A stretch of DNA of 64,000 nucleotides, from contig JBAZOT010000003.1 in NCBI GenBank assembly GCA_041648575.1, positions 14,895-78,894 on the forward strand. The letters run 5' to 3'. Positions 42,412 to 51,774 of this stretch are shown here, piece by piece. The stretch's first letter is position 1; each line of letters begins with the position of its first letter. The DNA comes from Patescibacteria group bacterium (lineage in GTDB: Bacteria > Patescibacteriota > Patescibacteriia > Veblenbacterales > UBA10138). The notes under the pieces are model-generated. The model saw only the letters and a program-made list of their open reading frames with translations. It did no database searches and was not told the origin of the DNA. The position numbers and the translations under genes were made by a program.

Positions 42412-43095
42412 CTATTGTTCTTTAAATTCATCCAAGCAAGTTTCCAAATCTGGGGTTTTGGTCCAACCACATTGGTTATCTTCCTGGCGCTCGCAAACCG
42501 CCCGAGTATAACACACGTATTCGGGTTTAAAGTCGCAAGTCGTAATAACTTCTTCATCAGCGCAAATCTGTTTACTACAACCAGTTATAATACACGGTTT
42601 GGTGAGTAGTTGATTATCTTCACCAAATAATACCGGGATATTAATTTGTGCGTCGTACTCTGGTAAACCAGAAGGATTGTCTTTTTGTAAAACCAAAACC
42701 CCAGCATCGCTAGATGGTTTGGTAAAAGTTAAACTGGCAACAAATGGCACAAAATTTTCTGTCATCCAATCACTTTGCGCTTGGGCAATACCTTGGGCTA
42801 ATATATTTCCTTGGTCATCTAAAAGTCTAATCGGAAACGATGCTTCAAAAAACCAGGTTCCGCGCGCCTCTCCAGTAACTTGTAACGGACTGGCTACTAA
42901 CTGCTGCTTCTGCGGTTTAACAACTTTAATTAAATTCTCAACTTCTTGATCAACATCAACTGGACTATTGTTAACTATAGGCGAATTATTATTTAAGTTA
43001 TCACTGGTCTCAAACTGCTGCCAAATTATAAATCCCATCCAACCCAAAGCTAAAATGATTACCAGACTGATTATTATTCTTATAATTTTAGTCAT
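42412..43095 (-). CDS. Gmad2 Ig-like domain protein with a Cys-rich C-terminal module
   Basis: N-terminal TM helix, then LQVTGEARGTWFFEASFPIRLLDDQGNILAQG...FVPFVASLTF, and a C-terminus with 8 Cys. Confidence 0.6.
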   Translation of the reverse strand: MTKIIRIIISLVIILALGWMGFIIWQQFETSDNLNNNSPIVNNSPVDVDQEVENLIKVVKPQKQQLVASPLQVTGEARGTWFFEASFPIRLLDDQGNILAQGIAQAQSDWMTENFVPFVASLTFTKPSSDAGVLVLQKDNPSGLPEYDAQINIPVLFGEDNQLLTKPCIITGCSKQICADEEVITTCDFKPEYVCYTRAVCERQEDNQCGWTKTPDLETCLDEFKEQ

Positions 43096-43103
43096 AGATT
43101 TTG

Positions 43104-43592
43104 TTATGGTTGTAAAATATCTTCAGTACGTCCGTCAATAGAAATTATAACTTGTTTAAGTTCTGGAAATTGTTGCAGAGTGCTAATAATTTGCTGACGA
43201 ATATTGGTCACTCGGCAAGAACCGCCGACTTGATACTCTAACTGTTGATTAAAATCAACGCGTACTACACACTGTTCAATGATAAAATTTTGAATAACTA
43301 CTCCTTGATTAATACTAGTAAAATAACCTTGTTCTTTCTCGTCATCGGTTGGACCAATTAGTAGACTTTCCAGGACTACTTGCTCTTTATTAATAATGGA
43401 TACCTGCCTTAAAACTGGAAAAACCTTAGTACAGTCTAGTGCTTGTGGATCAAGCTTGCTATTGCCAAAAAATAATTCCACTGTATTCATTTGCTCTAGT
43501 GGCGCTTTGGCTTCTTGAATAGTTAATATAAAAAATATTAATGCTATGATTAAAAACAGTACAATAATCAACAATACATAACGGCGGGTCAT
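43104..43592 (-). CDS. GerMN-domain envelope protein
   Basis: N-terminal TM helix, then LLIGPTDDEKEQGYFTSI, VRVDFNQQ and QIISTLQQFPELKQVIISIDG. Confidence 0.6.
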   Translation of the reverse strand: MTRRYVLLIIVLFLIIALIFFILTIQEAKAPLEQMNTVELFFGNSKLDPQALDCTKVFPVLRQVSIINKEQVVLESLLIGPTDDEKEQGYFTSINQGVVIQNFIIEQCVVRVDFNQQLEYQVGGSCRVTNIRQQIISTLQQFPELKQVIISIDGRTEDILQP

Positions 43593-43598
43593 AAAATA

Positions 43599-44177
43599 TT
43601 AATTGATTTCTAATAATTCAATTTCAAAAATAAGTGTGGCTTTGGCGGGTATCGCTCCATTGCCCACGCCTTGATCACCATAAGCAAGGTTAGAGGGAAT
43701 AATCAATTTGCGCTGTTCGCCTGGCTTCATTCCCACTAATCCCTGATCCCAACCCTTAATAACTTGCCCCTCGCCAAGGGAAAACACAAATGGTTCACCA
43801 CGATCCCGACTGGAATCAAATTTTGTACCATTGGTAAGCCAACCGGTATAGTGGACTGCTAGCTCGTCGCCTGTTACTGCTTCGCGCCCCTGGCCTGGTT
43901 TAATTATTTCAATTAACAAATTATCTGACTGACTAGTAGCAGTATTAGTTGGTAAATTTGTTCCTGTATTTCCAGATGATTCTTCGGTTGTTTTTAAACT
44001 ATCCCTAAATTCAATGGCCTGCTCATTGTTATTATTAATAATTTCCATATCATTATTCTTAAAAAAAATAAAATAAATTCCAATCAAAACTGCTAAACCA
44101 ACTAAAGTGCCAATAATTATGCCAATTGTCTGACTGGTATAAGTACGCTCACTTCTATTAGATAAATCTAGATACAT
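43599..44177 (-). CDS. membrane-anchored FKBP-type peptidyl-prolyl isomerase
   Basis: Matches [60 protein letters not shown]. Confidence 0.85.
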
Positions 44178-44201
44178 AAGATGAAACTATTTTAATATTT
44201 A

Positions 44202-44816
44202 CTACTTTACATTCTGGTTATTAAATCGCCGATTAATGATTTCTATTTGTTGCTTTAATAAATTATCATCAGTTACCAGTTTTATTTTCTCTTGTTTAAG
44301 AGCAGGTGGTAATTTATCAAATTTCTCTACTATATTTTTGATGGTAACTAACTGTTCGTGATTATAACTCTGCTCATTAATTTTACTTTGCTTGTTAATA
44401 TAAGGCCAGATTTCCTCTAATGCTTCGTGTTCAGCAATAATTCTAGTTAAGGTTTTCTCCCGACTAGTGGCTAATTGGTAATGTTTTTGATCATACCATG
44501 ATACGCTAATGCCTTGCTTATATAACAACTCTCCCAGTTGAACTAAATAAGAGGCTACATTATGACTTTCTTTTAAATCATGCGAACGCTGTTGGTCTTG
44601 ATCATCTAGTAAAATGCTAAATTCCCATTCTAATTGATGTAACATACTAGTGCATAAACCCTCCATAACTGCATGATACTGCGATTTTTCAAATTTTTCA
44701 GTAATATTATTTTCAAAATCACCCAAACGATCAATGATTTTTTCATCAAAATTAGATAATTGTTCTGTAACTAATTCTGGATTTTTTTCACTGGTGGTTA
44801 ATGTCTCGCGAAACAT
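44202..44816 (-). CDS. hypothetical cytoplasmic protein
   Basis: 204-aa acidic helical ORF lying 3 nt downstream of the Clp-like gene. Confidence 0.5.
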   Translation of the reverse strand: MFRETLTTSEKNPELVTEQLSNFDEKIIDRLGDFENNITEKFEKSQYHAVMEGLCTSMLHQLEWEFSILLDDQDQQRSHDLKESHNVASYLVQLGELLYKQGISVSWYDQKHYQLATSREKTLTRIIAEHEALEEIWPYINKQSKINEQSYNHEQLVTIKNIVEKFDKLPPALKQEKIKLVTDDNLLKQQIEIINRRFNNQNVK

Positions 44817-44819
44817 AAA

Positions 44820-47393
44820 TTATAATTTACTGGCTTTTTCTACCCTCACCACGCTCCCCGGCTCTAGCACTACCACATCTCTACGGGTCAATTTACCAGT
44901 TAATAAATAATTTGCCAAAGCATTATCAACTTTATCTTGAATTACCCGTTGCAAAGGTCGTGCTCCGTATAATGGATCAAATCCTTCGCGTGCTAATTCT
45001 TCAATTGCCGTTGCTGAAGCTTGCAAAGTTATTCCTTTGGTTAATAAATTTCGCGCCAATTTATCTAGCAATAATTTAGTTATAGCAATTACGTTTTGAA
45101 AATCTAACGGTTTAAAAACTACCACGCCATCAAATCTATTAATCAATTCCGGTCTAAAATACTGTTTTAATTCATTTTGTAATAAGTATTGATGAATTTG
45201 TATAATGGTCTTGCCTTGACGCATGCTGTCCTGAATAAATTGCGTGCCAGCATTAGAAGTGGCAATGATAATCGTGTTAGTGAAATCAACAGTTCGTCCA
45301 GTTGAATCAGTTAACCGACCGTCATCGAATAACTGTAAAAAGACATTTAAAATATCAGGATGAGACTTTTCAAATTCATCAAGTAAAATTAAAGCGTAGG
45401 GAGCTTGCCTTACTGCTTCGGTTAAGTAACCAGCTTCCCGACCCATCCCTGGCGGCGCGCCTATTAGTCGATAAATGCTCTCGGCAGTTTGATATTCTGA
45501 CATATCCAAACGAATCATCTTGTTTTCGCCGCCAAAATATTCAGCTGCCACGGTTTTTGCTAATTCTGTTTTACCAACACCTGTCGGGCCTAAAAATAAA
45601 AAAGTGGCAATTGGCCGTGATGCTGTCCGTAACTCAACGCGTGCCCGCCTTAAAGCTGCTGCCACCAACCGCACAGCTTCGTCTTGGCCAATAATGCGCT
45701 GATGTAAAATATCCTCCAAATTAAGCAACCTTTCGCCCTCGGCCTTGCTGATTTTGGTAACTGGCACATTTACTTTTCCCGACACCAGTTGAGCAATATC
45801 TTCAGCGGTAATAGTTGTATTCTCTTTATTTTTTTGCCTGACAAATACTGCAGCTTCTTCACAAATCTTAATGGCTTTCTCTGGTAAAAAACGATCAGGA
45901 ATAAAACGCCGTGATAAATCCACCGCTTGTGCTAAGGCCCCATAAGAAAAATAAACTTTATGCTGATATTCAAGCTGCCCCACTGTTGCCTCTAAAATTT
46001 GTATGGCCACATCGTTTGTTGGCTCTTCTATTTTTACTTTTTCCAAAGCATTACCCAAAGAAGTACGATCCAAATAACTGCGCTGGTCGCTGGGGGTAGT
46101 AGACGCTAAAGTAATAATCCCTGACTTACCAATAAAATTGGCGATCATTTCTGACACATCTAAATTTTCCTTGCCACCAGTACTTTGACCCACTAAATTA
46201 TGAATGTCATCAATATATAAAATAATATTGCTAGCTCGCGATATCTCATTCATGATTTGCAGTAACTTATGTTCAACTTCATTAGCATTGTTAGCGCCGC
46301 CAACTAATGCGGGTACTGATAACTGAATCAATTTTTTGTCTTTCATTGTCTCTGGTACTTCTTCGGCCACCATAGCTTGGGCAATACCCTCGACAATTGC
46401 TGTTTTACCGACGCCCGATTCACCAACTAAAACCACGCTGGAATGACCACCTTCAATAATGCGGAAAATTTCCTGAATTTCCTTATCGCGTCCAATACAA
46501 GGCTTCAGATATCCATGAGCTGCCAAATAGGTTAATTCATGACTAATTTGATCTAATAAAGGCGTAGCTACGGCTAAATAGGCTCGATCTAAAGCATGGC
46601 GCGGGCGCCAGGCTGCTTTTCGCGCACGACGCGATACTTCTTGCCGTAAACGGCGCCTAACAGCAAACCAAATAGTAATATTTTCTATCATCACTGGTTC
46701 AATAGCCAACTCATCTAAAACTTCCCGCGCTAAAGATTCATTTTTAGCTATGGCTAAAAGCATTTCTCCAACTTCAACTTGCTGACTTCGCTGGACTAAA
46801 GCCAATTCAGTCGCCTTAACAAAAATTCCTTGCACTGAATTGCTTAATTGTGGATTAGTACCAGTGGTTACTTTAGTCAACGCGTTTGATAAAGTATTAA
46901 ATAACTTATCTGGATCAACACCTAATCTGGAAAAAACCGCTTGTCCACTTCTGGTTTTTAAAGAGGCAGCCAATAAATGAATTTCCTTAATTTCATTATG
47001 CGAAAATTTATGGGCATATCGAAACGCCTCTTCCAGTAACTGCCAAACTTCGGGTGACAAATAATTCTCAACTTTAATAGCTTGATCTTTAGCGTCAATT
47101 AAAATTTTATGAGCAGTCCGTTCCTGTTCTAAGCGATAAAAAGTATAACCAAAAAAGAAAACTGCCAACCAAAATAATCGATGTAGCTCGGCTGGCGGCA
47201 TAATTGACTCCCACCAAAATCCTCCTTGTTCAATAAATAAAAATAATCGCCAGAAATAAAATACCAAAAAAATTATCGCTAACAACAATGAACAACCACC
47301 CACTAAGCGATACATTAACTGGCGAAATTTGCGCGCCAATAACGACGGTAAAGTTGGTTTTATTGTCCAGGCAATGACCGACATTTTAAACAA
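44820..47393 (-). CDS. ClpC/ClpB-like double AAA+ ATPase with N-terminal transmembrane helices
   Basis: Two hydrophobic helices lie in residues about 30-95, followed by Clp_N-like repeats. Also present are GESGVGKTA and GPTGVGKTE Walker A motifs, and sensor GARPLQRVI. No long M-domain is evident. Confidence 0.85.
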   Translation of the reverse strand: MFKMSVIAWTIKPTLPSLLARKFRQLMYRLVGGCSLLLAIIFLVFYFWRLFLFIEQGGFWWESIMPPAELHRLFWLAVFFFGYTFYRLEQERTAHKILIDAKDQAIKVENYLSPEVWQLLEEAFRYAHKFSHNEIKEIHLLAASLKTRSGQAVFSRLGVDPDKLFNTLSNALTKVTTGTNPQLSNSVQGIFVKATELALVQRSQQVEVGEMLLAIAKNESLAREVLDELAIEPVMIENITIWFAVRRRLRQEVSRRARKAAWRPRHALDRAYLAVATPLLDQISHELTYLAAHGYLKPCIGRDKEIQEIFRIIEGGHSSVVLVGESGVGKTAIVEGIAQAMVAEEVPETMKDKKLIQLSVPALVGGANNANEVEHKLLQIMNEISRASNIILYIDDIHNLVGQSTGGKENLDVSEMIANFIGKSGIITLASTTPSDQRSYLDRTSLGNALEKVKIEEPTNDVAIQILEATVGQLEYQHKVYFSYGALAQAVDLSRRFIPDRFLPEKAIKICEEAAVFVRQKNKENTTITAEDIAQLVSGKVNVPVTKISKAEGERLLNLEDILHQRIIGQDEAVRLVAAALRRARVELRTASRPIATFLFLGPTGVGKTELAKTVAAEYFGGENKMIRLDMSEYQTAESIYRLIGAPPGMGREAGYLTEAVRQAPYALILLDEFEKSHPDILNVFLQLFDDGRLTDSTGRTVDFTNTIIIATSNAGTQFIQDSMRQGKTIIQIHQYLLQNELKQYFRPELINRFDGVVVFKPLDFQNVIAITKLLLDKLARNLLTKGITLQASATAIEELAREGFDPLYGARPLQRVIQDKVDNALANYLLTGKLTRRDVVVLEPGSVVRVEKASKL

Positions 47394-47736
47394 AAATTAA
47401 AATTAATGACACTGGTAACAATGCCAGCCAAATTAAAAAAATCGCCGTGTACCACAACACCCAAAAAACCAAACGAATAAATTTATAGATCACCAAAACC
47501 GTGCGCATCAATAAACTAATGGCGCGCCCCGAAATGGTGTAATCGCCATACATTGGCTTAAAAAAGTATTTTAAAAATAACCCCAGAGCCAACCGTTCCC
47601 AGGTATTATGAAGACTTTCTAAGCAATACTGGCCAACCATTTTTAACCCACCAGTATACCACCACCAAGGGAACCGCCACAGGTCGCCAATAACATTTAA
47701 AGCTAATTTACTAACTTCTTCCCGCGCATATGTCAT
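47386..47736 (-). CDS. hypothetical membrane protein
   Basis: 116 aa with WRFPWWWYTGG and 2 C-terminal TM helices. Overlaps the Clp-like gene by 8 nt. Confidence 0.5.
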   Translation of the reverse strand: MTYAREEVSKLALNVIGDLWRFPWWWYTGGLKMVGQYCLESLHNTWERLALGLFLKYFFKPMYGDYTISGRAISLLMRTVLVIYKFIRLVFWVLWYTAIFLIWLALLPVSLILIFV

Positions 47737-47789
47737 ACGCTTATATTATACTTTATTTTATGCAGGGAGAAAAGAAAATATCTTTGCTT

Positions 47790-48920
47790 CTATAACTTAC
47801 CTTTTTTAATAGCTAAACGAATAATCTTCATCAATTCCAAATAAAAATGCAGATTGTGAATAGTGGCCAGGCGCAAGGCCAGGGTTTCTTGGATATCAAA
47901 CAAATGTCTTAAATAAGCGCGGGTGGTTTTTAATTGGGCGCAGGTAAAACACAAACAACCTTGCTCCAAAATAGAAAAATCTTTTTTATAAACCGCGCTT
48001 TTAATATTTATTGCTTCATAAAACTTTTTACCGCTGGCTAGTAATTTTACTTTATCCTGCTGGCCTGATTTTAACCACAGATAAATTCGTCCATGCCGCG
48101 CCTCTCGAGTCGGAATTACACAATCAAAACAATCCACTCCTCGCTTTACCGCCTCCACAATATTTTCTGGATACCCCACGCCCATTAAATAATGTAATTT
48201 ATCCTGCGGCAATAACGGAACAGTATAATCTAAAACTTGGTACATTTGTTTTGGTTCTTCGCCAACAGCTAATCCACCAATAGCATAACCATCAAAGGGT
48301 AATTGTTTTAATTCTCCGCAACTTTGCTGACGCAAATCTTTAAAAACTGAACCTTGAGCAATTCCAAACAATGCCTGACCCGGTTTTTTAATTTTTGGCC
48401 AATACTTTATTGCTTGCTTAGCCCATGATGAAGTTCGCTCTACTGCCGCACCTGCTTCTTGCTTAGTACAAGGATAACCAACACATTCATCTAACACCAT
48501 TACTATATCTGATCCTAATTCAACTTGTATGGCTAAAGCTAATTTAGGAGTTAAAAAATATTTATTACCATTTTCCGGTACTCTAAATTCCACTCCATCT
48601 GGTTTTACTTTACGTACCTTACTTAAACTAAAAACTTGAAACCCGCCTGAATCAGTTAAAACTGGACCTGACCAACCCATAAATTTATGCAAACCACCGG
48701 CCTGGCGAATAACCTCACGTCCAGGCTTTAGCCATAAATGATAGGTGTTAGACAAAATAATTTGGGCACCCAGCGCCTTAATATCTGCCACAGACAAACT
48801 CTTTACTGCCCCACGGGTAGCAATTGGTAAAAAAAACGGCGTTTCGATTTTACCGTGCCGAGTTTTAAAAACCCCAACCCGGGCTTGACTTTTAGGTGAC
48901 TTTTGTTCTAAAGTAAACAC
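47790..48920 (-). CDS. tgt: queuine tRNA-ribosyltransferase
   Basis: Carries LTDSGGFQV, DGYAIGGLAVGE and zinc site CxCxxC...H (CLCFTC). GTG start. Confidence 0.95.
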   Translation of the reverse strand: MFTLEQKSPKSQARVGVFKTRHGKIETPFFLPIATRGAVKSLSVADIKALGAQIILSNTYHLWLKPGREVIRQAGGLHKFMGWSGPVLTDSGGFQVFSLSKVRKVKPDGVEFRVPENGNKYFLTPKLALAIQVELGSDIVMVLDECVGYPCTKQEAGAAVERTSSWAKQAIKYWPKIKKPGQALFGIAQGSVFKDLRQQSCGELKQLPFDGYAIGGLAVGEEPKQMYQVLDYTVPLLPQDKLHYLMGVGYPENIVEAVKRGVDCFDCVIPTREARHGRIYLWLKSGQQDKVKLLASGKKFYEAINIKSAVYKKDFSILEQGCLCFTCAQLKTTRAYLRHLFDIQETLALRLATIHNLHFYLELMKIIRLAIKKGKL

Positions 48921-48974: not shown

Positions 48975-49721
48975 TTGTTCCTTAATAAAATGTTAATAAA
49001 GGCAGAGATTATAGCCTCTGTGATAATAAGGGTAAAAGATATAACAATAGATTATATTATTGATCCATTTGTTCCGATTCAAACAAATCGCCGTAAAATC
49101 AGAAACGCCTTAGTTTCTTTTGCAAAATATCTATCACGTCCGCTATCGGAAAAAGTTGACTTGTGGATTGAGCAAGATATAATCTCAACCGCTAATATTA
49201 TCTCCCTAAGCAGGGCACTAATGGCTGGCCCGCTATTCTTAATATTTACCCATTTTGACTTGGGTATTACCTACCAAATGGGACCCTTGATATGGGCTTT
49301 CGTTTCTGACTATATAGATGGAGTTTTAGCTAGAAAAATGTCTCAGGTGACTGATTTAGGCGCTGGATTAGATGCGGCTTGCGACAAAATATTTGCCTTT
49401 TTTGTTGCAATATCTTATTTAGATCAACTTTTTTACTCGCCGTTCAACGCCGTGGCGTTTATAATATTAGATGGATTCCTGCTAACTTTAGGTATTATGT
49501 TGTATTTAGCCAGAAAAAAAGGACATTATCAAGGTAAGGCCGAAGTTAGAGCTAATTGGTTAGGTAAAATTAAATTCAACCTTCAAGCTGGAGCATGTTT
49601 CTGTTGGATGAATTACTGGACAACAGAGGGCCACTACTTTTTACTTGGCGCCAATTTGTTTGCACTTGGTAGCCTGATACGGCACCTTTCTCCTAAAATA
49701 AAAAATAATGAGACCGGATAA
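48975..49721 (+). CDS. CDP-alcohol phosphatidyltransferase family protein
   Basis: SDYIDGVLARKMSQVTDLGAGLDAACDK fits D(x2)DG(x2)AR(x8)G(x3)D(x3)D. TTG start 6-7 nt after AAGGAGG. Confidence 0.75.
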   Translation: MFLNKMLIKAEIIASVIIRVKDITIDYIIDPFVPIQTNRRKIRNALVSFAKYLSRPLSEKVDLWIEQDIISTANIISLSRALMAGPLFLIFTHFDLGITYQMGPLIWAFVSDYIDGVLARKMSQVTDLGAGLDAACDKIFAFFVAISYLDQLFYSPFNAVAFIILDGFLLTLGIMLYLARKKGHYQGKAEVRANWLGKIKFNLQAGACFCWMNYWTTEGHYFLLGANLFALGSLIRHLSPKIKNNETG

Positions 49722-49739: not shown

Positions 49740-51632
49740 TTATCTAACAACCACTCCTTTGCCTTGCGCGCCTAAATCATTATCCAGTTCTGTGGTAACT
49801 AATTTATCTGTAGCAATTAAATCTGCACCGCTATAAGCATCCCGAGCTGTGGCAGTGGTGGTTTTTACCAACACTAAAATTTTATCCGCATCTTGCTCTG
49901 CCGGTGTAATAGCTACTTCAAAAGACGCTTCTGGTTTATCAAATTTAAACCCTACGCCCGCAGGCAGACGATTTAATTCCCAACGCACTTCGCGAGTATT
50001 GGGATTATATGTTAATGGCTGGCCATGCGATACTGTCGTTTGTCCGGTCCAGGTTACATCTTGGGGTAAAGTAGTAGTAACTTCAACGTTGCTAGCCTCA
50101 TTAATAGTATTGGCTAATCTCCAAAAAATATTATAAGTGGTAGTGTTGCCTACTCGCGGCGGCAACTGTCCCGAGCCAATTTTTATCAACTGATCTGTGT
50201 AATACCTACCTTCTGTTTGAACTAATAATTGTGTATTAATCTTGGTAATTATAATATTTGATTCAGTAGTAACCGGCTGTAATTTACCACCAATCAATTG
50301 CTCGGCACTCGCCTTAACGCTGGTATTAAAACTATAAGGCGACATATTGTTAGGAGCAACACTTACAACTTTCAAGCGAAAATTAATACTGCCTTTGGTA
50401 CCAGGAGCAACTCTAGCTAAACTGGGCAACTCATTTTTTGTCCAAACCACTGCGTTTTCTGTCTCTTTAACATTAGTTGGCGTATCTGTTTGCCAAGAGG
50501 TCCAATCTAATAACTCGGAATTTAATTTGGTCTCTAACACTAAATTAGTTAAAGCAATTTCCCCTTCATTAGCATAACGCAATTCAAAATCAATTTGTTC
50601 CCCCCAATCAGCATAGCTTTTTAAAACTACCTGATTCGCAGTTAATGACAATGTTAAATGAGACTCAATTAACGTTACAGATATTTTCTTTTCTTCTTGA
50701 ATAGTAAAAGTATTATCGTCATTAATCACACCAATGGCTACAGAAAAATCCTGAATACCAGCACTAGCTGAAGTGGTAAACCTGCCGGTAAATTCCAGCT
50801 CGCCAACACTTTTGGCAGATAGGTCATCCAATTTCCATAAATTTATTTCGCCAATTACTGATTCTAATTTTGGAAGATCCAATTCGAAGCCGCTGGGGCT
50901 AATGAATTTTAATGCTAAATTCGGCAACGCCGCAGTAGAAGTATTATTATACTTAATTTTTAATGCCAAATCTTGATCAAAAGGTAATTGTGCAGGAGCT
51001 TCTAAATCTATGGTTACTACCGAAGCAATTAATTCTGTGGAAAAAACTGTCGTCTTGGCAAACTGTGCTTTAAAATTTTCCGGCTCATATGTAAAAACCG
51101 CGGCCATTTCCTTAATCTCGCCAACCTCACCAACCATTTGCCCGGTTATTACCAACTCTCCACTACCTTTGGCGTCAACTTGACCTAAGAGAAATCTAGT
51201 CTTGGCTTCATCATCAGCTGGTTTACTGGTTTCAGTTACGACAAAACCAGTCGGATAGCGAAAATTAACTTCCAAAAAATTTAAACCAACTCCCTGATCA
51301 TTATTCCAAGACAAAGTATAATTAATCATTTGCCCCGATGGCGCACTGACTGGACCAGATAATTTCACCTTAACCGCTTCTTCGCCAAATTTTGTATTCT
51401 GACCACTAAAAAAAACAAACCAAATGCCACCGACAATAATTACCACTAATAAAGTGGTCGTTAACCATAACCAACCACGCTGACGTGAAGCTTTTTTTCT
51501 TAGCACGCGAAAATCTTCAGGTGGATCTTGGCGATACATGCGCGCCAATTCACGCTCGGCAACTTCTGCAGTTAAAGGTGTTTTTTTTGATTTTGATAAA
51601 GTATCAAGAGGTGGCCTAGAAATATTAGACAT
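49740..51632 (-). CDS. large membrane-anchored surface protein with repeated beta-sandwich (DUF11/CARDB-like) modules
   Basis: N-terminal cytoplasmic tail, one TM helix (LWLTTTLLVVIIVGGIWFVFF), then about 550 aa rich in T/V/N. I prefer ATG 51630-51632 over the TTG inside the repeat. Confidence 0.6.
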   Translation of the reverse strand: MSNISRPPLDTLSKSKKTPLTAEVAERELARMYRQDPPEDFRVLRKKASRQRGWLWLTTTLLVVIIVGGIWFVFFSGQNTKFGEEAVKVKLSGPVSAPSGQMINYTLSWNNDQGVGLNFLEVNFRYPTGFVVTETSKPADDEAKTRFLLGQVDAKGSGELVITGQMVGEVGEIKEMAAVFTYEPENFKAQFAKTTVFSTELIASVVTIDLEAPAQLPFDQDLALKIKYNNTSTAALPNLALKFISPSGFELDLPKLESVIGEINLWKLDDLSAKSVGELEFTGRFTTSASAGIQDFSVAIGVINDDNTFTIQEEKKISVTLIESHLTLSLTANQVVLKSYADWGEQIDFELRYANEGEIALTNLVLETKLNSELLDWTSWQTDTPTNVKETENAVVWTKNELPSLARVAPGTKGSINFRLKVVSVAPNNMSPYSFNTSVKASAEQLIGGKLQPVTTESNIIITKINTQLLVQTEGRYYTDQLIKIGSGQLPPRVGNTTTYNIFWRLANTINEASNVEVTTTLPQDVTWTGQTTVSHGQPLTYNPNTREVRWELNRLPAGVGFKFDKPEASFEVAITPAEQDADKILVLVKTTTATARDAYSGADLIATDKLVTTELDNDLGAQGKGVVVR

Positions 51633-51633
51633 A

Positions 51634-51774
51634 CCCAGTAACAAAAACTTGACCTGCTAAAAATTAAGCGAGTCGAGATAATTAATAATAAAAGTTGGTT
51701 GGTTTATAAAAGCTGACATAAATTGATAATATAGATGATTTTTACCAGAGCTTAAGTCAAGTTTTGTTACTAGG
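51634..51774 (-). mobile_element. MITE-like element copy 2 (141 bp)
   Basis: The ends are CCCAGTAACAAAAACTTGAC ... GTCAAGTTTTGTTACTAGG. CATA occurs at 51630-33 and 51775-78. It has the same orientation relative to transcription as copy 1. Confidence 0.75.

What the first reader, a model, noticed from the sequence alone, without database searches (positions are those of the whole stretch)
44820..47736. Membrane-anchored ClpC/ClpB-like unfoldase translationally coupled to a small membrane protein
What the sequence shows: the 857-aa double-AAA+ protein starts with about 95 residues containing two strongly hydrophobic helices (SLLLAIIFLVFYFWRLFLFI and LFWLAVFFFGYTFY). These precede the Clp_N-like repeats. 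An Arg-rich linker replaces a long M-domain. Its start overlaps by 8 nt the end of a 116-aa membrane protein (WRFPWWWYTGG plus 2 TM helices). No clpP is nearby. Established background: canonical ClpB/ClpC are soluble. Inference: a membrane-tethered unfoldase or extractase, functionally closer to FtsH-like or secretion-associated ATPases.
Basis: partly seen in the sequence, partly recalled or inferred. Interest (0 to 1): 0.5.

Follow-up and report, generated by a model that had tools for sequence, protein, structure and literature searches.

The report
Membrane-anchored Clp ATPase with small partner
This gene pair encodes a Clp/Hsp100-type ATPase anchored in the membrane and a small membrane protein that almost always sits beside it in one group of ultra-small (CPR) bacteria; the ATPase has lost most of the parts such machines use to pull proteins through their pore, so it probably works differently from ordinary ClpB/ClpC.

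Summary
The core observation holds. Two hydrophobic N-terminal helices precede a genuine Clp_N domain. All 118 relatives examined have them; none of 73 ordinary Clp proteins does. The 116-aa gene upstream (47386..47736) belongs to a Patescibacteria family with no Pfam match. In 79 of 80 species-representative genomes it lies directly upstream of such a Clp.

Three details need correction:
- With the ATG start, one base separates the two genes; there is no 8-nt overlap.
- The Arg-rich stretch is the N-domain-to-D1 linker, not an M-domain replacement. The M-domain is simply absent.
- The small protein has one clear C-terminal membrane helix, not two.

New findings:
- The ClpP-docking loop is absent family-wide.
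- Ring D1 is degenerate: Walker B Glu kept in 4/118, Arg fingers lost, pore tyrosine 0/118.
- Ring D2's catalytic residues are invariant (118/118), but its pore-loop aromatic survives in only 18/118, and not in the window's protein.
- In about half the species the pair sits between ftsL and mraY.

Best reading: a ClpP-independent, D2-driven membrane remodeller with an obligate partner, probably not a classical threading unfoldase. It is a new variant of a known kind. No paper in the searched library describes it.

The parts
47386..47736 (-). Small partner protein, 116 aa. It has a conserved FPxWWYxxG motif (residues 22-30), a conserved tip F59-x-P61-M62...G70-R71..S74...R78, and one C-terminal hydrophobic helix (residues ~84-116).
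   Evidence: Family alignments show W25, W26, G30, P61, M62, G70, S74 and R78 invariant. There are at least 1560 clusters, with no Pfam hit in the precomputed Pfam column of the 120 listed; the source names given are almost all Patescibacteria-group. The window's own protein has no Pfam or NCBIfam hit. AlphaFold2 gives pLDDT 92.9 with two 48-residue helices forming a hairpin. Hydropathy and charge profile. No solved-structure match at E<3.
44820..47384 (-). Membrane-anchored Clp/Hsp100-family ATPase, 854 aa from the ATG at 47384. The TTG at 47393 would add 3 residues.
47295..47384 (-). N-terminal cytoplasmic basic segment (residues 1-30, net charge +5). Most relatives carry an extra CxxCxGxG zinc ribbon here; the window's protein does not.
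   Evidence: The 25 residues before TM1 carry a mean charge of +3.1 across 118 members. At least two CxxC motifs occur in 78/118. The best Pfam match is DnaJ_CXXCXGXG, below threshold.
47232..47294 (-). Membrane helix 1 (residues 31-51, CSLLLAIIFLVFYFWRLFLFI).
   Evidence: Kyte-Doolittle mean 2.44. It lies within the AlphaFold2 helix 12-52. Present in 47/47 family proteins against 0/73 other Clp.
47178..47231 (-). Short loop, inferred to be extracytoplasmic (residues 52-69, EQGGFWWESIMPPAELHR).
   Evidence: Loop length is ~16-23 residues and mean charge is about -0.2 across the family. The topology is inferred.
47130..47177 (-). Membrane helix 2 (residues 70-85, LFWLAVFFFGYTFYRL), ending in a conserved Y-R.
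   Evidence: The segment is conserved in 118 members with mean Kyte-Doolittle 1.6. It lies within the AlphaFold2 helix 68-91.
46701..47072 (-). Clp_N domain (residues ~105-228).
   Evidence: Pfam Clp_N scores 26.1 bits against a cut-off of 20.7. The AlphaFold2 model has eight helices. Foldseek matches HSP101, ClpV1, ClpC1, ClpB and ClpA N-domains at probability 1.0.
46599..46673 (-). Arg-rich N-domain-to-D1 linker (residues 238-262, IWFAVRRRLRQEVSRRARKAAWRPR).
   Evidence: It continues the last N-domain helix, and pLDDT falls after residue ~250. It lies upstream of the TPLLD start of D1.
45825..46562 (-). Ring D1, degenerate. Walker A GESGVGKT is kept (46401-46424). Walker B is IDDIH, with Asp where the catalytic Glu would be (within 46194-46223). 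The pore loop is GGANNANEVE with no Tyr (46272-46301). The Arg-finger site reads N-A (within 46029-46061). No M-domain is inserted at its end (junction 45780-45872).
44871..45767 (-). Ring D2 plus the D2-small domain, catalytically intact. Walker A GPTGVGKT is at 45567-45590 and Walker B LILLDEFEK at 45366-45392. Sensor-1 N, Arg finger R750 and sensor-2 R809 are present. The pore loop is shortened to GAPPGMGREAG with no aromatic residue (45429-45461). There is no ClpP-docking loop (site 45180-45263).

Best explanation
The pair encodes a two-component membrane machine specific to one part of the Candidate Phyla Radiation (Patescibacteria). It consists of a Clp/Hsp100-derived ATPase and a small partner protein.

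Anatomy:
- The ATPase is held at the cytoplasmic face of the membrane by an N-terminal two-helix hairpin, with both ends in the cytoplasm.
- The small partner resembles a tail-anchored protein. Its conserved helical-hairpin domain is inferred to face the cytoplasm.
- The ATPase works without ClpP, because it has no docking loop.
- It works without a DnaK- or MecA-type M-domain.
- Ring D1 has kept its nucleotide-binding loop but lost its hydrolysis and pore residues. It probably serves as a structural assembly ring.
- Ring D2 is the only motor.

Mechanism (inferred): the D2 pore loop has lost its aromatic gripping residue in most lineages, including this one. ATP hydrolysis is therefore most likely used for non-processive remodelling, holding or release of membrane-associated clients or of the partner itself. 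This would be Torsin-like or Pex1/6-like, and not FtsH-style processive threading.

Likely field of action (inferred from gene context): cell-envelope and division biogenesis.

What is shown: the anatomy, its conservation, the gene pairing and the motif losses. What is inferred: the topology, the physical partnership, the non-threading mechanism and the envelope/division role.
For: Membrane anchor:
- Present in 47/47 family proteins against 0/73 other Clp proteins.
- The region before TM1 is positively charged. A cytoplasmic-type zinc ribbon sits before TM1 in 78/118 members.
- The AlphaFold2 model is confident, pLDDT 91.5.

Partnership:
- The small gene lies directly upstream on the same strand in 79/80 species-representative loci, across at least three different genomic contexts.
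- The gap is within +/-13 nt in 60/73 pairs.
- The partner family has invariant residues.

No ClpP and no M-domain.

D1 dead, D2 live:
- D1 Walker B Glu is kept in 4/118. The D1 Arg fingers are kept in 7/118 and 0/118. The D1 pore Tyr is kept in 0/118.
- D2 Walker A Lys, Walker B Asp-Glu, sensor-1, Arg finger and sensor-2 are all 118/118.

Pore-loop loss:
- The D2 pore loop has an aromatic residue in only 18/118 members.
- Within the window's own subclade the equivalent position varies (Met, Ser, Ala/Val, Thr), so no hydrophobic grip is under selection.
- Among the protein-search hits, the D2 motif (PG[YF]xG[YF]) is present in 72/73 ordinary Clp proteins and in 0/47 family proteins.

Context:
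- 43 of the 73 loci cross-tabulated have a division/cell-wall (dcw) context, typically MraZ-RsmH-FtsL-[pair]-MraY.
- The Clp stop lies within 35 nt of the mraY start in 23/39.
- In the window, the downstream genes encode proteins with N-terminal hydrophobic segments carrying FKBP, GerMN and Gmad2 domains.

Precedent: Torsins are Clp-related, lack aromatic pore loops, associate with membranes and depend on transmembrane cofactors (PMC5425593).
Against: - No experiment exists. Physical contact between the two proteins was not modelled or shown.
- One subclade keeps the D2 pore tyrosine (10/14 loci in the T4SS-pilin/DsbA context). Threading was therefore probably ancestral and may persist there.
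- Other residues might substitute for the lost aromatic. Pore-loop 2 and contributions from the partner were not analysed.
- An N-terminal anchor puts the usual substrate-entry face (N-domain/D1) towards the membrane, as in FtsH and Msp1. That geometry suits an extractase.
- Gene context differs between subfamilies. The window's own pair is not in the dcw cluster.
- Whether the genome has clpP elsewhere is unknown.
Confidence: 0.45

Rival explanations
1. Classical membrane-protein extractase or unfoldase. A hexamer sits with its N-domain/D1 entry face against the membrane. It grips membrane or tail-anchored proteins and threads them through the pore into the cytoplasm, as FtsH or Msp1 do but without a protease. 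The small protein would act as adaptor or substrate receptor.
For: - The N-terminal anchor gives the same geometry as FtsH and Msp1 (established knowledge).
- The D2 ATPase site is fully conserved.
- A genuine Clp_N domain is retained.
- A DnaJ-like zinc ribbon in 78/118 members hints at binding of unfolded proteins.
- A subclade keeps the D2 pore tyrosine.
Against: - The D1 pore Tyr is kept in 0/118 members.
- The D2 pore-loop aromatic is lost, with a 2-6 residue deletion, in most of the remaining 100/118 members, including the window's protein.
- No conserved hydrophobic replacement exists within the window's subclade.
- D1 lacks its hydrolysis residues and Arg fingers.
Confidence: 0.3
2. 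Export or translocation motor. The twelve anchor helices of a hexamer, plus the partner's helices, form a membrane conduit. The ATPase feeds proteins into it, as Plasmodium HSP101 does in the PTEX translocon.
For: - The N-domain's best structural match is the HSP101 N-domain.
- Neighbouring genes often encode envelope or secreted proteins: DUF11/CLIPPER-like surface protein, DsbA, T4SS pilin, and FKBP/GerMN/Gmad2 proteins with N-terminal hydrophobic segments.
Against: - Hsp100 machines move substrate from the N/D1 face to the D2 face (established knowledge). With an N-terminal anchor, substrate would move away from the membrane.
- The pore loops are degenerate.
- The top structural hits are all Clp N-domains with similar scores, so the HSP101 match is not specific.
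- No channel-forming features were shown.
Confidence: 0.07
3. Dedicated divisome or peptidoglycan-precursor factor. The pair is an ATP-driven assembly or turnover factor for FtsL, MraY or other division membrane proteins. This concerns the client and could combine with either mechanism above.
For: - 43 of the 73 loci cross-tabulated have a dcw context, typically the pair between ftsL and mraY.
- The pair is often separated from mraY by 35 nt or less (23/39).
Against: - The window's subfamily and the T4SS-pilin subfamily are not in the dcw cluster.
- Gene neighbourhood alone does not identify a client.
Confidence: 0.15
4. Ordinary soluble ClpC whose start codon was called too far upstream.
For: An in-frame Met (residue 62) lies downstream of an AAGGAGG.
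Against: - The region upstream of that Met is conserved as protein, with both hydrophobic helices, in all 118 relatives down to ~20% identity.
- The AAGGAGG is 19 nt from the Met.
- Only 6/42 genes in the window use such a motif.
- A start at Met62 would still leave helix 2 in the protein.
- The M-domain and ClpP loop are missing in any case.
Confidence: 0.01

Closest known systems
ClpC / ClpA / ClpB (class-I Clp/Hsp100 AAA+ proteins)
   Same: It is homologous throughout: Clp_N domain, two AAA+ rings, AAA_lid_9 and D2-small domain. The best solved relative is B. subtilis ClpC at E=4e-142. Like ClpA it has no M-domain. Like ClpB it has no ClpP-docking loop.
   Different: - It has an N-terminal two-helix membrane anchor (0/73 ordinary Clp proteins have one).
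- It has neither an M-domain nor a ClpP loop, a combination that none of the three shows.
- D1 Walker B Glu, the D1 Arg fingers and both pore-loop tyrosines are lost.
- It scores below every NCBIfam cut-off.
- It has an obligate small membrane partner.
Torsin ATPases with the LAP1/LULL1 cofactors (eukaryotic ER and nuclear envelope)
   Same: Torsins are Clp/Hsp100-related AAA+ proteins that lack aromatic pore loops, associate with membranes through an N-terminal hydrophobic segment, and depend on membrane-anchored cofactors (PMC5425593). This is the closest functional analogy for a non-threading Clp derivative.
   Different: - Torsins have a single ring, sit in the ER lumen and lack their own Arg finger, which the cofactor supplies. 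Here the active D2 ring keeps its Arg finger in 118/118 members.
- The partner here is a small helical hairpin, not a degenerate AAA+ fold.
- No direct descent from Torsins is implied.
FtsH and Msp1/ATAD1 (membrane-anchored AAA+ extractases)
   Same: They have an N-terminal membrane anchor that places the ring's entry face at the cytoplasmic membrane surface. They act without ClpP (established knowledge; PMC7949044 and PMC12793716 were listed).
   Different: FtsH and Msp1 have a single AAA ring with an intact aromatic pore loop, and FtsH carries an M41 protease domain. Here there are two Clp-type rings, no protease domain and degenerate pore loops.
Pex1/Pex6 with Pex15/Pex26 (peroxisomal type-II AAA+ and its tail-anchored receptor)
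   Same: From my own knowledge, not tested here: a double-ring AAA+ in which D1 is hydrolysis-inactive and D2 is the motor, held at a membrane through a small tail-anchored protein with a helical cytosolic domain.
   Different: It is a different AAA+ clade. Pex1/6 is itself soluble and keeps its D2 pore-loop aromatics. Here the ATPase carries its own anchor.
Plasmodium HSP101 in the PTEX translocon
   Same: It is an Hsp100 working at a membrane together with membrane proteins. Its N-domain is the top structural match (4iod/4irf).
   Different: HSP101 has an M-domain and working pore loops, and is not itself a membrane protein. As noted under the export-motor rival, an N-terminal anchor would move substrate away from the membrane.

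Membership tests
Clp/Hsp100 class-I (double-ring) AAA+ | Two AAA+ modules with a Clp-type lid (AAA_lid_9) and a C-terminal D2-small domain | tested here: met
   Pfam: AAA 2.8e-21, AAA_lid_9 8e-15, AAA_2 1.7e-57, ClpB_D2-small 7.8e-20.
Clp/Hsp100 class-I (double-ring) AAA+ | Clp_N (double four-helix repeat) N-domain | tested here: met
   Pfam Clp_N scores 26.1 bits against a cut-off of 20.7. The AlphaFold2 model matches solved Clp N-domains at probability 1.0, TM-score 0.66-0.86 against the standalone N-domain targets.
Clp/Hsp100 class-I (double-ring) AAA+ | Aromatic pore-loop residues in both rings (D1 KYRGEFE, D2 GYVGY) | tested here: not met
   The window has GGANNANEVE in D1 and GAPPG--MGREAG in D2. 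D1 Tyr is kept in 0/118 and a D2 aromatic in 18/118. Ordinary Clp proteins keep them in 69/73 and 72/73.
ClpB (disaggregase) | Long coiled-coil M-domain inserted in the D1 small subdomain | tested here: not met
   The ~120-column ClpB insertion is absent in all 118 members. The PDB alignment skips it.
ClpB (disaggregase) | Reaches the NCBIfam TIGR03346 equivalog cut-off | tested here: not met
   600.8 bits against a cut-off of 1232.1.
ClpC | Short M-domain (MecA-binding coiled coil) | tested here: not met
   Query residue 523 aligns to ClpC 407 and query 519 to ClpC 462, so ClpC residues 408-461 have no counterpart.
ClpC / ClpA (ClpP partners) | ClpP-docking (I/L/V)G(F/L) loop in D2 | tested here: not met
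   ClpC's KYVGFNVQDE aligns to QDSMRQGKTI plus a gap. The loop columns are empty in the whole family.
ClpA | Reaches the NCBIfam TIGR02639 equivalog cut-off | tested here: not met
   529.7 bits against a cut-off of 993.15. The domain order without an M-domain does resemble ClpA.
ClpV / TssH (type VI secretion) | Reaches the TIGR03345 cut-off | tested here: not met
   483.6 bits against a cut-off of 884.95. T6SS neighbours were not searched for; the census queries included no T6SS proteins.
FtsH | N-terminal membrane helices, a single AAA ring and an M41 zinc protease domain | tested here: not met
   The membrane helices are present. No Peptidase_M41 appears among the best 25 of 33 Pfam hits, and there are two Clp-type rings instead of one.
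Torsin-like (functional class, not homology) | Clp-related ring without aromatic pore loops, membrane-associated, with a membrane cofactor | tested here: met
   Torsin properties are taken from PMC5425593.
Torsin-like (functional class, not homology) | The active site lacks its own Arg finger, which the cofactor supplies | tested here: not met
   The D2 Arg finger R750 is conserved in 118/118 members.
The new CPR family itself (membrane-anchored Clp with small partner) | Two-helix N-terminal anchor, a degenerate D1, and an adjacent upstream FPxWWY-motif small gene | tested here: met
   The window's protein is 95% identical to P0001 and falls within the P0001-P0047 cluster (643-1796 bits). Ordinary Clp proteins score 504 bits or less. 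The pair is present in the window.

The most novel reading that the evidence does not exclude
A bacterial counterpart of the Torsin/cofactor or Pex1/6-Pex15 principle. The Clp-derived double ring would no longer thread polypeptides. Its single live ring (D2) would drive cycles of binding and release on an obligate tail-anchored partner. The complex would be a core, lineage-specific part of the division and peptidoglycan-precursor machinery (ftsL-[pair]-mraY) in this CPR lineage. This would be a previously unrecognised class of membrane AAA+ machine.
Probability: 0.2. Interest if true: 0.8.

Novelty: new variant of a known kind. Interest (0 to 1): 0.6.

Why it matters
- Clp/Hsp100 proteins are textbook soluble threading machines. 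This family is integral to the membrane. It has dropped the M-domain, the ClpP loop, D1 catalysis and, in most lineages, both pore tyrosines. Yet it keeps a perfectly conserved D2 ATPase. It is therefore a natural experiment on what such a ring can do without a gripping pore.
- The family is widespread. The partner gene was found in 271 species-representative genomes from a single peptide pattern, and it forms at least 1560 protein clusters.
- It is currently annotated only as 'ATP-dependent Clp protease ATP-binding subunit' plus 'hypothetical protein'. That wrongly implies ClpP-dependent proteolysis.
- In about half the species it sits inside the division/cell-wall gene cluster. It is thus a concrete candidate for a lineage-specific envelope or division factor in ultra-small bacteria, whose cell biology is largely unknown.

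Tried and rejected
1. Internal start or soluble ClpC. Rejected on orthologue conservation. Shine-Dalgarno motifs are rare in this genome (6/42 genes).
2. clpP, clpX or ftsH nearby. Only the Clp gene itself hit, weakly. Presence elsewhere in the genome could not be tested.
3. Promoter and terminator scan of 43500-48100. Counts were at chance level, so it was uninformative.
4. Structure search with the small protein against the PDB. Only generic helical hairpins, all E>3.
5. Search with the Clp N-terminal 275 aa. It returned nothing at E<=1e-3, although P0001 is 91% identical over this region. This is unexplained and probably a tool artefact.
6. Foldseek against afdb50. The library was unavailable.
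7. Complex prediction. I prepared paired small-protein/Clp fusions for a complex model. I did not submit them, because the prediction tool returns no contacts or PAE and an interface could not have been read.
8. Natural fusions. An exhaustive search with a concatenated query found only standalone small proteins. The one exception is P0341 (414 aa), which looks like a frameshifted or mis-called read-through of the pair.
9. Literature. Five full-text searches found no paper describing a membrane-anchored Clp/Hsp100 or this pair.
10. TM7x paper. Its clpP and clpX mentions carry the APY09_ locus tags that the paper uses for the host and say nothing about CPR.

Full report
**What is at the coordinates**

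The minus strand carries a 116-aa ORF (47386..47736) followed by a long ORF (44820..47393, 857 aa from a TTG). The sequence at the junction reads ...ATT TTT GTT TAA A ATG TCG... The TTG start would overlap the upstream gene by 8 nt. An ATG three codons further on lies one base after the TAA stop.

Pfam finds Clp_N (26 bits, one repeat), AAA, AAA_lid_9, AAA_2 and ClpB_D2-small in the long ORF. It finds nothing in the 116-aa ORF. No NCBIfam equivalog cut-off is reached: ClpB 601 against 1232, ClpA 530 against 993, ClpV 484 against 885.

**The start codon and the membrane anchor**

A protein search returns a sharply separated cluster, P0001-P0047, scoring 1796 down to 643 bits. These proteins are 694-924 aa long (a few partial) and cover 86-100% of the query; the source names given are mostly Patescibacteria. 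Scores then drop to 504 bits for ordinary ClpC and ClpB.

The closest cluster members (P0001-P0007) begin M..[IV].WTI[KRN]PT., which matches the window's MSVIAWTIKPTL. The real start is therefore the ATG at 47384, and the protein is 854 aa.

All 47 cluster members have a strongly hydrophobic segment in the first 140 residues. None of the 73 ordinary Clp proteins from the same search does.

I enlarged the set to 118 members by adding 70 complete genes taken from the genome loci. In this alignment both hydrophobic segments align throughout. TM1 is window residues 31-51 and TM2 is residues 70-85. The loop between them is mostly 16-23 residues. The 25 residues before TM1 carry a mean charge of +3.1, and the loop about -0.2. 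In 78/118 members a CxxC...CxxC zinc ribbon precedes TM1. Its best Pfam match is the DnaJ CXXCXGXG domain, below threshold.

Zinc ribbons are cytoplasmic and the ATPase rings must be cytoplasmic. The topology I infer is therefore a hairpin with the N-terminus and the body both inside the cell.

AlphaFold2 models residues 1-275 confidently (pLDDT 91.5, pTM 0.81). It shows helices 12-52 and 68-91, followed by eight helices. Foldseek matches these to solved Clp N-domains at probability 1.0: HSP101, ClpV1, ClpC1, ClpB and ClpA.

The refuting scenario of an internal start is excluded. The internal Met62 has an AAGGAGG 19 nt upstream, but only 6 of 42 genes in the window have any Shine-Dalgarno-like motif.

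**What is missing compared with ordinary Clp proteins**

- In the alignment to B. subtilis ClpC, query residue 523 aligns to ClpC 407 and query 519 to ClpC 462 (857-aa numbering). ClpA aligns as one uninterrupted stretch. The M-domain is therefore completely absent. The same holds for all 118 members.
It is not a replacement for the M-domain.
- ClpC's ClpP-docking KYVGF loop has no counterpart here or anywhere in the family.
- No clpP, clpX or ftsH was found in the 64-kb window or in the 88 related loci. Whether the genome has clpP elsewhere could not be tested.

**A dead D1 ring and a live D2 ring with a stripped pore**

Across the 118 members:

| Ring | Residue | Conservation |
|---|---|---|
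| D2 | Walker A Lys | 118/118 |
| D2 | Walker B Asp-Glu | 118/118 |
| D2 | sensor-1 Asn | 118/118 |
| D2 | Arg finger | 118/118 |
| D2 | sensor-2 Arg | 118/118 |
| D1 | Walker B Glu | 4/118 (Asn 68, Asp 35; the window has Asp) |
| D1 | first Arg finger | 7/118 (the window has Asn) |
| D1 | second Arg finger | 0/118 (the window has Ala) |
| D1 | Walker A Lys | 97/118 (Arg in 21) |
| D1 | pore-loop Tyr | 0/118 |

The D2 pore loop reads GAPPGYVGYEEGG in the canonical ClpB reference. It keeps an aromatic residue in only 18/118 members. Elsewhere it is shortened by 2-6 residues. The window has GAPPG--MGREAG. Within its own subclade the equivalent position is Met, Ser, Ala/Val or Thr, so no hydrophobic grip is conserved.

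Simple motif counts give the same split. Among ordinary Clp proteins, 72/73 have the D2 loop motif, 69/73 the D1 loop motif and 73/73 the D1 Asp-Glu Walker B. Among family proteins, 0/47 have any of the three.

**The small partner**

The 116-aa protein has homologues immediately upstream of the Clp gene in all six loci first examined. A profile search finds at least 1560 clusters. None of the 120 listed has a Pfam hit, and the names given are 'hypothetical protein', almost all from Patescibacteria-group bacteria.

A scan of one genome per species with a single peptide pattern finds the gene in 271 genomes. Of the 80 loci fetched, 79 have the Clp homologue directly downstream on the same strand. 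The exception, L062, has ruvA-like and FemAB-like genes downstream instead. The distance from the small gene's stop to the Clp start is most often +3, +1 or -4 nt, and is within +/-13 nt in 60/73 pairs.

AlphaFold2 models the small protein as two 48-residue helices forming a long hairpin (pLDDT 92.9). The invariant P61-M62...G70-R71 motif sits at the tip. No solved structure resembles it specifically.

Hydropathy shows one strongly hydrophobic stretch (residues 84-116), preceded by a +3.1 charge cluster. The N-terminal helix is only amphipathic. I therefore read it as a tail-anchored-type protein with a cytoplasmic helical domain. I do not read it as a protein with two membrane helices.

An exhaustive search with the two sequences concatenated found about 220 representatives at 50% identity. 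Nearly all are standalone proteins of about 85-190 aa. There is no convincing natural fusion.

**Subfamilies and gene context**

73 of the genome loci, those whose Clp gene entered the family alignment, were cross-tabulated. They fall into three groups:

| Context | Loci | Zinc ribbon | D2 pore loop |
|---|---|---|---|
| dcw context (any of MraZ, RsmH, FtsL, MraY beside the pair) | 43 | yes | shortened by 4-6 residues; no aromatic in 41/43 |
| T4SS-pilin or DsbA gene beside the pair | 14 | yes | full length in 12/14; aromatic kept in 10/14 |
| RecO / DUF11-CLIPPER-like / GlyRS context (the window's type; tgt is inserted upstream in the window) | 14 | absent in 11 | no aromatic in 12/14 |

- In the first group the Clp stop lies within 35 nt of the mraY start in 23/39 loci.
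- In the window, the downstream genes are a 204-aa ORF with no Pfam hit, then FKBP prolyl isomerase, GerMN and Gmad2 proteins. The last three each begin with a hydrophobic segment. Only the closest relative shares this arrangement.

**Interpretation**

Shown:
- This is a lineage-specific, membrane-anchored Clp/Hsp100 derivative with an almost invariably adjacent small membrane partner.
- It has no M-domain and no ClpP loop.
- D1 is catalytically degenerate.
- The D2 ATPase site is fully conserved.
- The canonical pore-loop aromatics are lost in most lineages, including this one.

Inferred:
- D1 serves as a nucleotide-binding assembly ring and D2 is the only motor.
- The two proteins form a complex at the cytoplasmic membrane face.
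- ATP hydrolysis drives non-processive remodelling, holding or release, and not FtsH-style threading.

The closest functional precedents are Torsins and Pex1/6-Pex15. Torsins are Clp-related, lack aromatic pore loops, associate with membranes and depend on transmembrane cofactors (PMC5425593). Pex1/6-Pex15 is cited from my own knowledge.

The extractase reading remains a serious rival, for three reasons:
- The anchor geometry matches FtsH and Msp1.
- One subclade keeps the D2 tyrosine.
- Other loops were not analysed.

The dcw neighbourhood suggests envelope or division clients. It is not universal and does not apply to the window's own locus.

**Novelty**

Five full-text literature searches found nothing on a membrane-anchored Clp/Hsp100 or on this pair. 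Databases label the two proteins 'ATP-dependent Clp protease ATP-binding subunit' and 'hypothetical protein'. I class this as a new variant of a known kind and score interest at 0.6.

Noticed in passing
window 42412-44816 (-): Four genes lie directly downstream of the Clp gene. The first is a 204-aa ORF with no Pfam hit that starts 3 nt after the Clp stop. The others are an FKBP prolyl isomerase (192 aa), a GerMN/Germane protein (162 aa) and a Gmad2 Ig-like protein (227 aa), each beginning with a hydrophobic segment. Together they look like an envelope-folding cluster. Only the closest relative L009 shares the FKBP and Gmad2 genes, and only L014 has a weak match to the 204-aa ORF.
   Followed up: partly
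window 1-64000: 45 of 51 ORFs of 150 aa or more are on the minus strand. The six plus-strand ORFs include two that lie inside longer minus-strand ORFs. GC skew is negative in every 2-kb window (-0.06 to -0.25). No tRNA gene was found in 64 kb. Only 6 of 42 genes have a Shine-Dalgarno-like motif upstream.
   Followed up: partly
window 49740-51644 (-) and 48975-49721 (+): A 634-aa protein with DUF11, DUF7619 and CLIPPER-like domains and an N-terminal membrane helix lies upstream. So does a divergently oriented CDP-alcohol phosphatidyltransferase. Both are syntenic with the pair in many relatives (RecO-CLIPPER-[CDP-OH_P_transf]-pair). In the window and ~15 loci, tgt lies upstream of the pair; in the window it sits between these genes and the pair.
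   Followed up: partly
L023, L028, L031, L034 and ~40 further loci: In the dcw cluster of these CPR genomes the pair occupies the position between ftsL and mraY. In textbook dcw clusters ftsI, murE and murF sit there. DUF192 and rplU (L21) follow mraY.
   Followed up: partly
L062 5959-7935: This is the only one of 80 loci in which the small gene is not followed by the Clp gene. A RuvA-like 189-aa ORF and a FemAB-like 325-aa ORF follow, then a 100-N scaffold gap.
   Followed up: yes
P0341 (414 aa, from the representative library): A single ORF contains the small-protein domain (residues 165-257) followed by a Clp-type N-terminal membrane hairpin. It looks like a frameshifted or mis-called read-through of the pair, not a genuine fusion.
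   Followed up: partly
window 47216-47222 (-), inside the Clp coding region: A perfect AAGGAGG lies 19 nt upstream of the in-frame Met62. It encodes part of the conserved loop (EQGG) and is unlikely to be a ribosome-binding site.
   Followed up: yes
record titles of L009, L010, L015 and others; also L079 and P0037: Many source records are titled 'uncultured Gammaproteobacteria bacterium', and single ones 'Candidatus Udaeobacter' or 'Kapabacteria'. Their gene content and synteny match the records titled Patescibacteria. The titles are probably placeholder or mis-binned names.
   Followed up: no
(query window:46560-47384:-): The word-index protein search with the N-terminal 275 aa returned no hit at E<=1e-3, although P0001 is 91% identical over this region. 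This is unexplained and probably a tool artefact.
   Followed up: no
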